A DNA stretch of 64,000 bases from the human T2T-CHM13v2.0 reference genome, Homo sapiens. A model generated the notes under the pieces. It had not been told where the DNA came from. It did no database searches and was given only the letters and a program-made list of their open reading frames with translations. The stretch is taken from assembly GCA_009914755.4 (NCBI GenBank), contig CP086569.2, positions 992,001-1,056,000 of the forward strand, written 5' to 3'. A program made the translations under genes and the position numbers. This document shows positions 35,500 to 38,030 of this stretch, one piece after another (position 1 is the stretch's first letter; the number at the start of each line of letters is the position of its first letter).

Positions 35500-38030
35500 A
35501 ATGGCACTAGAAAGAGAAGGGAATGGGGAGGGGAGGAGGGAGAGGAAGAGGAGGGGGAGGGAAAAACAAAGAGGAGAAAGAGGAAGAGGAGGAGGGGAGA
35601 AGGAGGAAGGAGAGATGGAGGAGGAGGGGAGAAGGAAGAGGAGGGAGATGAGGAGGGAAAAAGGCAGAGATGGGGAAGATAGCAAAGGAGGACAAAGAGG
35701 AGGAGAAGGAGGAGGCAGAGGAGGAGAATGAGAAGGGGAAGAAGGAGGAGGAAGAGGAGAAGGATGAGAAGGAGGAAGAGGAAAGGGAGGGAGAGAAAGA
35801 AGGAGGGGAAAGAGAAGGAGGAGGGAGAGAAAGAGCAGGGAAGGAGGGGAAGAGGAGGGAGAAGGAGGAGGATGGAAAGGGAGGAGGAGGGGGAGGGTGG
35901 GGAGGAGCAGGTGAAGGGAGGAGGAGGGAGGAGGAGGGAGAGGGTGGGGAGGAGCAGGTGAAGGGAGGAGGAGGGAGAGAAAGCAGGGAAGGAGGGGAAG
36001 AGGAGGGAGAAGGAGGAGGATGGAAAGGGAGGAGGAGGGGGAGGGTGGGGAGGAGCAGGTGAAGGGAGGAGGAGGGAGGAGGAGGGAGAGGGTGGGGAGG
36101 AGCAGGTGAAGGGAGGAGGAGGGAGGAGGAGGGAGAGGGTGGGGAGGAGCAGGTGAAGGGAGGAGGAGGGAGGAGTAAGGGGAGTGGGAGGGGGAGGAGG
36201 AGGGGAAGGGAGGAGGAGAAGGGAGGAGGAGGAGGGAGGAGAAGGGGAGGAAGAGAAGTGGGGGAGGGGGAAGGGGGGAGGAGGAGGGGAAGGGAGGAGG
36301 AGGACGGGAAGGGAGGAGGGGAAGGGAAGAGGAGAAGGGAGGAGGAGGAGGGAGGAGGAGGAGGCAGGAGGAGGAGGGAGGAGGAGGAGGGAGGAGGAGA
36401 AGGGAGGAGGGGGAAGGGAGGAGGAGGAGGGAGGAGAAGGGGAGGAAGAGAAGTGGGGGAGGGGGAAGGGGGGAGGAGGAGGGGAAGGGAGGAGGAGGAC
36501 GGGAAGGGAGGAGGGGAAGGGAAGAGGAGAAGGGAGGAGGAGGAGGGAGGAGGAGGAGGCAGGAGGAGGAGGGAGGAGGAGGAGGGAGGAGGAGGAGGGA
36601 GGAGAAGGGGAGGAAGAGAAGTGGGGGAGGGGGAAGGGAGGAGGAGGAGGGGAAGGGAGGAGGAGGACGGGAAGGGAGGAGGGGAAGGGAAGAGGAGAAG
36701 GGAGGAGGAGGAGGGAGGAGGAGGAGGGAGGAGGAGGAGGGAGGAGGAGGAGGGAGGAGGAGGAGGGAGGAGAAGGGGAGGAAGAGAAGTGGGGGAGGGG
36801 GAAGGGAGGAGGAGGACGGGAAGGGAGGAGGGGAAGGGAAGAGGAGAAGGGAGGAGGAGGAGGGAGGAGGAGGAGGGAGGAGGAGGAGGGAGGAGGAGGA
36901 GGGAGGAGGAGGAGGGAGGAGAAGGGGAGGAAGAGAAGTGGGGGAGGGGGAAGGGAGGAGGAGGAGGGGAAGGGAGGAGGAGGACGGGAAGGGAGGAGGG
37001 GAAGGGAAGAGGAGAAGGGAGGAGGAGGAGGGAGGAGGAGGAGGGAGGAGGAGGAGGGAGGAGGAGGAGGGAGGAGGAGGGAGGAGGAGGAGGGAGGAGA
37101 AGGGGAGGAAGAGAAGTGGGGGAGGGGGAAGGGAGGAGGAGGAGGGGAAGGGAGGAGGAGGACGGGAAGGGAGGAGGGGAAGGGAAGAGGAGAAGGGAGG
37201 AGGAGGAGGGAGGAGGAGGAGGGAGGAGGAGGAGGAGGAGGAGGAGGGAGGAGGAGGGGAGGAGGGAAGGAGAGAAGTGGGGGAGGGGGAAGGGAGGAGG
37301 AGGAGGGGAAGGGAGGAGGAGGACGGGAAGGGAGGAGGGGAAGGGAAGAGGAGAAGGGAGGAGGAGGAGGGAGGAGGAGGAGGGAGGAGGAGGAGGGAGG
37401 AGGAGGAGGGAGGAGGAGGGAGGAGGAGGAGGGAGGAGAAGGGGAGGAAGAGAAGTGGGGGAGGGGGAAGGGAGGAGGAGGAGGGGAAGGGAGGAGGAGG
37501 ACGGGAAGGGAGGAGGGGAAGGGAAGAGGAGAAGGGAGGAGGAGGAGGGAGGAGGAGGAGGGAGGAGGAGGAGGGAGGAGGAGGAGGGAGGAGGAGGAGG
37601 GAGGAGAAGGGGAGGAAGAGAAGTGGGGGAGGGGGAAGGGAGGAGGAGGAGGGGAAGGGAAGAGGAGGAGAAAAAGAGAAGGAGGAGGTGGAGGGAGGAG
37701 GAGGGGGATCAGGAGAAGAGGATAGGAGGAGAGGAAGGTGGGAGGAGGGAGAGAAGGGAAGAGGAAGTGAGGACGAGGGAGGAGGAGGGGAAGGGAAGAG
37801 GAGGAGAAGAGCAGGAGGACAGGGAGGGGGAGGGAGGAGGAGGTGGAGGAGGAGAAGAGGATGGGAGACGAGGAAGGTAGGAGGAGGAGGGGCAGGAGAA
37901 GAGAAGTGGGAAGAAAAGGAGGAGGGAGGAGGAGGAGGGAGGAGGAGGAGGGAGGAGGAGGGGGAGGAGAAAGGGAGGAGGAGAAGTGGGGGAGGGGGAA
38001 GGGAGGAGGAAGGGGGAAGGGAAATCGTGT
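35500..38030 (+). repeat. ~2.5-kb polypurine (GGAGGA/GGGAGG)n array with ~160-175-bp higher-order periodicity
   Basis: near-pure G/A for 2.5 kb; marker 'gaagagaagtggggga' recurs at ~36247, 36453, 36612, 36783, 36932, 37109, 37270, 37444, 37613. Confidence 0.95.

What the first reader, a model, noticed from the sequence alone, without database searches (positions are those of the whole stretch)
35500..38030. 2.5-kb polypurine array with ~165-bp higher-order repeat structure
The + strand is almost exclusively G/A for 2.5 kb. Superimposed on the (GGAGGA)n base repeat is a higher-order periodicity: the marker 'gaagagaagtggggga' recurs about every 160-175 bp, at least 9 times. This indicates a satellite-like array expanded by unequal crossing-over rather than simple slippage. 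Such mirror-repeat-rich homopurine tracts form H-DNA/triplexes and stall replication and transcription. The neighbouring (TTTC)n tract at 34480-35010 is homopyrimidine on the same strand, giving a strand switch across the Alu at 35010-35290.
Basis: seen in the sequence. Interest (0 to 1): 0.5.

Follow-up and report, generated by a model that had tools for sequence, protein, structure and literature searches.

The report
Purine-only tandem repeat near human CRLF2
This is a real 2.5-kb stretch of almost pure G/A DNA in the human X/Y pseudoautosomal region, about 21 kb beyond the CRLF2 gene, whose core is eight near-identical ~168-bp copies; it is an ordinary, non-coding example of the structure-prone repeats already known to crowd this region.

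Summary
Window 35527-38020 is 97.3% purine on the + strand. TRF's best-scoring period is 168. The marker occurs 8 times exactly, plus one 1-mismatch copy, at spacings of 149-195 bp (median 168).

The high-identity repeat covers only 36190-37660 (8 full units and part of a ninth, 95-100% identical). A separate 148/47-bp module lies at 35820-36170, and both edges are degenerate. The dominant short period is 13 bp (GGGAGGAGGAGGA), not 6.

The last two CRLF2 coding exons lie at 58843-61250 on the minus strand. This places the window in human PAR1 and the array about 20.8 kb downstream of the CRLF2 stop codon, in intergenic DNA.

By the published H-DNA definition the array holds 23 mirror-repeat loci covering 41% of its length. 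It also holds 16-44 G-quadruplex motifs. Structure-forming potential is therefore supported by sequence but not shown experimentally.

The long ORFs are composition artefacts. The PRDM9 motif occurs once per unit but less often than composition predicts, and no published PRDM9 peak lies near the estimated position. The "strand switch" arises because the (CTTT)n tract is the expanded tail of a minus-strand Alu.

Verdict: a lineage-labile purine/pyrimidine VNTR of a known kind, of low to moderate interest.

The parts
35509..35800 (+). Degenerate purine-rich left edge with no long-range periodicity
   Evidence: About 97% purine. The best lag identity is only 0.6-0.7.
35820..36170 (+). Module A: a 148-bp duplication containing five copies of a 47-bp sub-repeat (marker GGTGGGGAGGAGCAGGTGAAGGGAGG)
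   Evidence: The marker lies at 35896, 35943, 36044, 36091 and 36138. Lag-148 identity is 0.93-1.0 and lag-47 identity is 0.94-0.95. The tiling is shown.
36190..37660 (+). Module B: the higher-order core, with 8 full units (195, 168, 168, 149, 178, 161, 178, 168 bp) and part of a ninth. Each unit has a ~100-bp irregular G-rich head carrying the marker and a tail of five perfect GGGAGGAGGAGGA 13-mers
   Evidence: Unit alignment gives 95-100% identity, with differences as block indels of 10, 19 and 27 bp. A unit HMM finds exactly these 8 copies and no others in the window.
37660..38024 (+). Degenerate purine-rich right edge with relic marker copies
   Evidence: AGAAGTGGG occurs at 37902 and 37982. 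Lag identities are 0.62-0.80.
34479..35008 (-). (GAAA)n/(CTTT)n tract, 98.9% pyrimidine on the + strand: the expanded poly(A) tail of the adjacent Alu
   Evidence: TRF gives period 4 with 127 copies. The tract abuts the tail end of the Alu.
35010..35292 (-). Alu element in minus orientation, separating the two tracts
   Evidence: Rfam RF00017 hit at 35176-35292 on the minus strand. The left/right monomer repeat is seen. The sequence was read.
38020..38330 (+). 35-bp x 8.9 minisatellite abutting the right edge of the array
   Evidence: TRF score 433 with 83% matches. Seven in-register copies at 35-bp spacing.
58843..59100 (-). Last coding exon of CRLF2 (…VMNDRSYVAL*), used to place the locus
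   Evidence: Six-frame match. The concatenated exons hit cytokine receptor-like factor 2 of Sapajus, Saguinus and Symphalangus, E 1e-42 to 2e-8.

Best explanation
The feature is a non-coding, intergenic homopurine/homopyrimidine VNTR in human pseudoautosomal region 1. It lies about 20.8 kb beyond the 3' end of CRLF2.

It has a layered history:
- An old GGA/GGGA-rich purine tract survives as the degenerate edges.
- Inside that tract, two blocks were amplified by duplication of whole blocks: a 47/148-bp module and a ~168-bp module.
- The 168-bp units are still being homogenised. Four of the eight are identical apart from block indels.
- Small-scale slippage in the 13-mer run and between internal direct repeats changes unit length by 10, 19 or 27 bp.

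The most likely drivers are misaligned exchange or gene conversion between units, and replication restart. PAR1 has extreme male recombination and is known to be packed with GA-rich repeats.

The array has no demonstrated function. Its expected effect is physical. The purine strand carries dense mirror repeats and G-runs, so under negative supercoiling it should form H-DNA and/or G-quadruplexes. These should impede polymerases, including sequencing polymerases.

Shown here: the anatomy, the locus, the motif density and the absence of coding signal. Inferred: the amplification mechanism, structure formation and instability.
For: Anatomy.

Locus: CRLF2 exons lie on the minus strand at 58843-61250.

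Regional context:
- The window has 96 TRF rows.
- It has 10 purine/pyrimidine tracts of at least 150 bp, making up 9.1% of the window.
- It has 82 H-DNA motif loci, about 62,000 bp per Mb, against a genome mean of 1589 bp per Mb.
- The T2T-Y paper states that PAR1 is enriched for GA microsatellites that cause HiFi coverage gaps, with 9 of 11 graph breaks in PAR1.

Structure potential:
- 23 H-DNA loci cover 1038 bp of the array, with three perfect 70-bp mirror repeats.
- 16 G4 motifs with loops up to 7 nt, and 44 with loops up to 12 nt.
- The 2.5-kb PKD1 intron 21 tract, with 23 perfect mirror repeats, forms triplexes and stalls replication.

Non-coding:
- No Pfam family matches any of the five long ORFs.
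- Unit lengths of 149, 161 and 178 bp are not multiples of 3.

Turnover: the tamarin CRLF2 region carries entirely different arrays, (TTCC)n of 1.9 kb, (TCCC)n of 0.8 kb and a 43-bp x 222 minisatellite.
Against: - Only one haplotype was available, so copy-number polymorphism and the mechanism of expansion were not observed.
- No orthologous array could be retrieved, so its age is unknown.
- No experimental structure or stalling data were examined for this locus.
- The 13-mer PRDM9 motif occurs once per unit. This leaves room for a recombination role, although the count is below what composition predicts.
Confidence: 0.8

Rival explanations
1. The array is a functional recombination element of PAR1: a multi-copy PRDM9 binding site, or a PRDM9-independent break or axis-loading array like the mouse mo-2 minisatellite. 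On this view it helps secure the obligatory X-Y crossover, and its unit turnover is a consequence of repeated meiotic breaks.
For: - There are 15 matches to CCNCCNTNNCCNC on the minus strand of the array. One (CCTCCCTTCCCCC) lies beside each marker.
- Hinch et al. report that many PAR1 PRDM9 peaks are minisatellite-like repeats, and that 5% of peaks hold 12 or more motif copies.
- Repeats are proposed to matter for PAR recombination.
Against: - Local shuffles of the array expect 24-34 motif matches, so 15 is a by-product of C/T composition, not an enrichment.
- Dataset S5 of Hinch et al. lists no PRDM9 ChIP-seq peak between hg19 1,264,197 and 1,315,247. The array is estimated at about 1.292-1.295 Mb. 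This estimate rests on my recollection of CRLF2's hg19 position and on collinearity with the window.
Confidence: 0.08
2. The array is a repeat derived from a transposable element: an internal VNTR or the G-rich 3' tract of a retroelement that later expanded.
For: - Other purine/pyrimidine tracts in the window are tails of Alus, for example (CTTT)n at 34479-35008.
- An L1 3' end lies just right of the 35-bp minisatellite on the minus strand (translation, recognised from memory).
Against: - The array does not touch the tail of either element.
- Its left flank (35293-35508) is unique sequence next to the 5' end of the Alu.
- The L1 tail is separated from the array by the 35-bp minisatellite.
- No copy of the unit exists elsewhere in the window on either strand.
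- No transposable-element library was available to test this properly.
Confidence: 0.06
3. The near-identical units are an assembly artefact (mis-collapsed or over-expanded low-complexity sequence).
For: GA-rich PAR1 sequence is a known problem for HiFi reads and needed manual patching in T2T assemblies.
Against: The units differ by structured, unit-specific indels and by variants shared between neighbours: U1 and U2 share two substitutions, and U5 and U7 share a 10-bp insertion. This looks like real variation rather than duplicated consensus.
Confidence: 0.04
4. The array encodes a low-complexity protein (ORFs of 442-878 aa run through it on both strands).
For: Five ORFs of 442 aa or more overlap the array.
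Against: - A sequence with 1.6% T on one strand and 1.1% C has almost no stop codons in most frames, so long ORFs are expected in both orientations.
- No Pfam match was found.
- No homologue was found for the junction ORF.
- No exact ORF is on record elsewhere.
- Unit lengths break the reading frame.
Confidence: 0.01

Closest known systems
PKD1 intron 21 polypyrimidine tract (PyRE)
   Same: Both are about 2.5 kb long and about 97% purine/pyrimidine pure. Both are G/C-rich and hold some two dozen H-DNA mirror repeats: 23 loci here, and 23 perfect plus 4 imperfect in PKD1. Both can also form G-quadruplexes.
   Different: This is a different locus, with CRLF2 nearby and no PKD1 exons. It is intergenic rather than intronic. 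It has a clear 168-bp higher-order tandem core. No experimental triplex, stalling or disease data exist for it.
Long homopurine/homopyrimidine tracts and GA microsatellites of PAR1
   Same: It lies in PAR1, has the same composition class, and sits among at least nine other purine/pyrimidine tracts in the same 64 kb. This class is reported to cause HiFi dropout in PAR1. Enrichment of long tracts in PAR1 was reported by Bacolla et al. 2006 (from my own knowledge; the paper is not held).
   Different: It is longer than its neighbours (2.5 kb against 0.15-1 kb). It is organised as a two-level repeat rather than a plain microsatellite.
Classical VNTRs / minisatellites with internal sub-repeats
   Same: It consists of head-to-tail units. 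The centre is homogenised and the edges are degenerate. Unit-length variants arise from internal slippage, and neighbouring units share variants.
   Different: The 168-bp unit is larger than most minisatellite units. The composition is almost pure purine. Polymorphism has not been observed here.
Alpha-satellite-type higher-order repeats
   Same: Copies of the long unit are far more alike (95-100%) than the sub-repeats inside it (mean 69%). The unit length is close to one nucleosome repeat.
   Different: It has eight copies over 1.45 kb rather than hundreds of kb. It is not centromeric. The sub-repeats are 13-mers, not ~171-bp monomers.
(GGA)n / GGA-rich G-quadruplex-forming repeats (for example the c-myb promoter)
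   Same: It has runs of GGA and GGGA with 211 G-runs of at least 3. GGA repeats are known to fold into tetrad-heptad quadruplexes (from my own knowledge).
   Different: It is hundreds of times longer than promoter GGA tracts and is not at a promoter.

Membership tests
VNTR / minisatellite | Head-to-tail tandem copies of a unit of tens to hundreds of bp | tested here: met
   Eight full units of 149-195 bp at 95-100% identity.
VNTR / minisatellite | Copy number varies between individuals | not testable with these tools
   No second human haplotype could be retrieved.
Higher-order repeat array | Long units are more alike than the sub-repeats within a unit | tested here: met
   Units are 95-100% identical. 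The 13-mers within a unit have a mean pairwise identity of 0.69.
Satellite DNA | Very long arrays (tens of kb to Mb) of the unit | tested here: not met
   The core is 1.45 kb with 8 copies. No other copy exists in the 64-kb window.
H-DNA-forming purine/pyrimidine mirror-repeat tract | At least 90% purine on one strand | tested here: met
   97.3% purine.
H-DNA-forming purine/pyrimidine mirror-repeat tract | Mirror repeats with arms of at least 10 nt and spacer below 8 nt (definition read) | tested here: met
   23 non-overlapping loci covering 1038 bp, with arms up to 35 nt. Shuffles give a maximum arm of about 15.
H-DNA-forming purine/pyrimidine mirror-repeat tract | Triplex formation shown by S1 or chemical probing | not testable with these tools
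   No experimental data set could be queried.
PKD1 intron 21 PyRE | Lies between PKD1 exons 21 and 22 on 16p13.3 | tested here: not met
   The flanks are an Alu, unique AT-rich DNA and a 35-bp minisatellite. The nearest gene is CRLF2.
G-quadruplex motif cluster | Four or more G-runs of at least 3 with short loops | tested here: met
   16 motifs with loops of 1-7 nt and 44 with loops of 1-12 nt on the + strand.
PAR1 multi-motif PRDM9 binding repeat (Hinch et al. 2014) | Five or more copies of CCNCCNTNNCCNC | tested here: met
   15 copies, but fewer than the 24-34 expected from composition.
PAR1 multi-motif PRDM9 binding repeat (Hinch et al. 2014) | PRDM9 ChIP-seq peak at the locus | tested here: not met
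   No peak lies between hg19 1,264,197 and 1,315,247. The array position of about 1.292-1.295 Mb is inferred from remembered CRLF2 coordinates, so this result is provisional.
Protein-coding low-complexity region | Conserved frame, domain or homologue | tested here: not met
   No Pfam hit, no homologue, and unit lengths that are not multiples of 3.

The most novel reading that the evidence does not exclude
The array, together with the other dense purine/pyrimidine and AT-rich arrays around it, could be a working part of the machinery that guarantees the X-Y crossover. It could act as a self-renewing reservoir of PRDM9 motifs (one per unit), or as a PRDM9-independent break or axis-loading array analogous to mouse mo-2. 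The 168-bp unit turnover would then be the footprint of repeated meiotic breaks.
Probability: 0.06. Interest if true: 0.6.

Novelty: new member of a known kind. Interest (0 to 1): 0.22.

Why it matters
As it stands the array is mainly of practical interest. It matches the size and H-DNA motif count of the PKD1 intron 21 tract, the textbook example of a triplex-forming, replication-stalling human sequence. It sits 21 kb from CRLF2, in a region where GA-rich DNA is known to break long-read assemblies. It is therefore a likely site of coverage dropout, mis-assembly and length polymorphism.

It would also be a convenient natural substrate for testing H-DNA against G-quadruplex formation on a repeat with a built-in 168-bp ruler. 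If it turned out to be a meiotic break site, it would bear on how human PAR1 sustains its obligatory crossover. Current evidence does not favour that.

Tried and rejected
1. PKD1 intron 21. I considered it because of the matching 2.5-kb size and 97% purity. I rejected it because the flanks and the neighbouring gene are CRLF2, not PKD1.

2. rDNA spacer or acrocentric origin. I considered it because of the repeat density. I rejected it because Rfam found no rRNA and CRLF2 exons are present.

3. Other haplotypes or orthologues, all unsuccessful:
- Exact look-ups of the array-spanning 878-aa ORF and of three flanking or edge ORFs found nothing.
- A metagenome scan for the marker found nothing.
- A protein search with the array/minisatellite junction ORF found nothing.
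- The siamang CRLF2-like locus lacks the whole 22.5-59.9 kb segment.
- The tamarin locus has different arrays and no homologue within reach.

4. PRDM9 motif enrichment. The raw count looked striking against whole-window shuffles but disappears against local composition.

5. The first nhmmer run with strand and bias options returned nothing. The default run recovered the 8 units.

6. Bacolla et al. 2006, on long purine/pyrimidine tracts in PAR1, is not held. I could not confirm CRLF2 hg19 coordinates from the literature.

7. L1 3'-tract origin. I considered it from the flank sequence, but the L1 tail is separated from the array.

Full report
**Observation**

Reading 34300-38400 shows a tract that is 97.3% G+A on the + strand between 35527 and 38022, and 98.7% in its core. 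GC and AT skew both stay above 0.9 throughout.

Tandem Repeats Finder reports periods 3, 10 and 13. Its best score (1867) goes to a 168-bp period.

The marker GAAGAGAAGTGGGGGA occurs exactly eight times: 36250, 36445, 36613, 36781, 36930, 37108, 37447 and 37615. A one-mismatch copy lies at 37269. Spacings are 195, 168, 168, 149, 178, 161, 178 and 168 bp.

In the core, identity at lag 168 is 0.719, against a maximum of 0.599 in 200 triplet shuffles. The strongest short lag is 13 (0.755), not 3 or 6.

**Anatomy**

Aligning the eight marker-to-marker units gives 95-100% identity. Units 3, 4, 5 and 8 are identical in every aligned column. Length differences are clean block indels of 10, 19 and 27 bp.

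Variant sharing among units is as follows:
- Units 1 and 2 share two private substitutions.
- Units 5 and 7 share a 10-bp insertion.

A sliding-lag scan divides the tract into four parts:
- 35509-35800: a degenerate left edge.
- 35820-36170: a separate module built from a 148-bp duplication and five 47-bp sub-repeats.
- 36190-37660: the 168-bp core.
- 37660-38024: a degenerate right edge with relic markers.

Each 168-bp unit has a ~100-bp irregular G-rich head and a tail of five perfect GGGAGGAGGAGGA 13-mers. The 13-mers within a unit average 69% pairwise identity. "Higher-order repeat" is therefore a fair description. "Satellite" is not, because there are only eight copies over 1.45 kb. A profile of the unit finds no further copy anywhere in the window on either strand.

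**Locus**

The window contains Alus. On the minus strand it carries two exons that I recognised as the C-terminus of CRLF2: …[28 protein letters not shown] at about 61250-61170, and EWITDTQ…VMNDRSYVAL* at 59100-58843.

The concatenated peptide hits proteins named cytokine receptor-like factor 2 in Sapajus, Saguinus and Symphalangus, with E values from 1e-42 to 2e-8.

The window is therefore human pseudoautosomal region 1, distal to CRLF2. The array is intergenic, about 20.8 kb past the CRLF2 stop codon.

The surroundings fit PAR1:
- 96 TRF rows in 64 kb.
- Ten purine/pyrimidine tracts of at least 150 bp, making up 9.1% of the window.
- 82 H-DNA motif loci, about 62,000 bp per Mb, against a genome mean of 1589 bp per Mb.

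The T2T-Y paper states that PAR1 is enriched for GA microsatellites that depress HiFi coverage. It reports that 9 of 11 assembly-graph breaks fell in PAR1.

**Structure-forming potential**

I used the published definition of an H-DNA motif: arms of at least 10 nt, spacer below 8 nt, at least 90% purine or pyrimidine, and under 80% A+T. By that definition the array has 23 non-overlapping H-DNA loci covering 1038 bp. These include three perfect 70-bp mirror repeats. Shuffles of the same sequence give about 30 raw motifs, against 434 observed, and a maximum arm of about 15.

Each unit contributes one ~29-bp locus and one 74-84-bp locus.

There are 16 canonical G-quadruplex motifs (loops up to 7 nt) and 44 with loops up to 12 nt.

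[quoted passage not shown] For the present array, structure formation and stalling are inferences from motif class. They are not observations.

**The strand switch**

The (CTTT)n tract at 34479-35008 is 98.9% pyrimidine on the + strand. It ends exactly where the poly(A) tail of the minus-strand Alu at 35010-35292 should be. It is an expanded Alu tail, purine-rich on the Alu's own strand. Its opposite polarity to the array is incidental.

**Rival readings**

Coding. Long ORFs run through the array on both strands, but this is expected where stop codons cannot form. Four results argue against coding:
- No Pfam match.
- No homologue for the junction ORF.
- No exact ORF on record elsewhere.
- Three of the unit lengths break the reading frame.

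Recombination element. The degenerate PRDM9 13-mer occurs 15 times on the minus strand, once per unit beside the marker. Hinch et al. note that many PAR1 PRDM9 peaks are minisatellite-like repeats with many motif copies. However, shuffles of the array itself expect 24-34 matches, so the count reflects composition alone. In addition, their peak list has nothing between hg19 1,264,197 and 1,315,247. I estimate the array at about 1.292-1.295 Mb. This estimate uses my recollection of CRLF2's hg19 coordinates, which is consistent with peaks at 1,315,247-1,331,808 inside the gene but is not independently verified.

Transposable-element origin and assembly artefact could not be excluded rigorously. 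Neither is favoured, for two reasons:
- The array touches no retroelement tail.
- Its units carry structured, neighbour-shared variants.

**Comparative data**

I could not obtain another human haplotype or an orthologous array.
- The siamang CRLF2-like locus jumps from window position 59887 to 22492, so the whole segment is absent there.
- The tamarin CRLF2 region instead has a 1.9-kb (TTCC)n tract, a 0.8-kb (TCCC)n tract and a 43-bp x 222 minisatellite immediately after the gene.

This shows that large purine/pyrimidine tracts and VNTRs recur around CRLF2 but are lineage-specific. That fits rapid neutral turnover rather than conservation of this particular array.

**Verdict**

The feature is a real two-level purine VNTR with very high H-DNA and G-quadruplex potential, in a region already known for such sequences. 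I found no specific description of it in the searchable literature. It is a new member of a known kind, of low to moderate interest.

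Noticed in passing
window 41155-43300: Processed pseudogene of ribosomal protein eL6 (RPL6). The ORF at 41155-41535 matches PDB eL6 chains (E 2e-21). A 208-bp piece of its coding sequence is tandemly amplified 5.0 times at 97% identity at 42257-43297.
   Followed up: partly
window 38020-38330: A 35-bp x 8.9 minisatellite (GGAAATTGTCTTTCAAATGCATTTCTTGCTTCCGT) directly abuts the right edge of the purine array. Its origin is unknown.
   Followed up: partly
window 20103-21088: A 986-bp tract that is 99.9% pyrimidine on the + strand and 70% G+C (CTCTC/CCTCC type). 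Its polarity is opposite to the array, 15 kb away. It carries 8 PRDM9 13-mer matches.
   Followed up: partly
window 26123-27527 and 11783-13075: A 1.4-kb (GAGAC)n-like array with 14/40/54-bp periods, and a 49-bp x 26.4 minisatellite at 96% identity.
   Followed up: no
window 33558-33906, 44009-44802, 45849-46894, 63678-63989: Several 0.3-1 kb arrays of almost pure A/T (G+C down to 2.5%), interleaved with the G+C-rich purine/pyrimidine tracts.
   Followed up: no
window 1-64000: The window as a whole has 82 H-DNA motif loci, about 62,000 bp per Mb. This is roughly 39 times the genome mean and similar to the enrichment reported for rDNA arrays.
   Followed up: partly
L001 13023-17191 (siamang CM054516.2, about 68.05 Mb): The siamang CRLF2-like locus aligns to window 63670-59887 and then jumps to 22492-21349. 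About 37 kb, including the array and the last CRLF2 exon, is missing there. The junction lies at an Alu.
   Followed up: partly
L002 5371-7310, 10121-10922, 11699-21214 (tamarin JASSZA010000332.1): The tamarin CRLF2 region has a 1.9-kb (TTCC)n tract and a 0.8-kb (TCCC)n tract in its introns. A 43-bp x 222 minisatellite (over 9.5 kb, 93% matches) starts just after the last exon.
   Followed up: partly
window 7971-9907: Nested tandem repeats of 347 bp (x3.2, 95% matches) and 128-136 bp (x3-6). Each unit begins with an (AC)n run.
   Followed up: no
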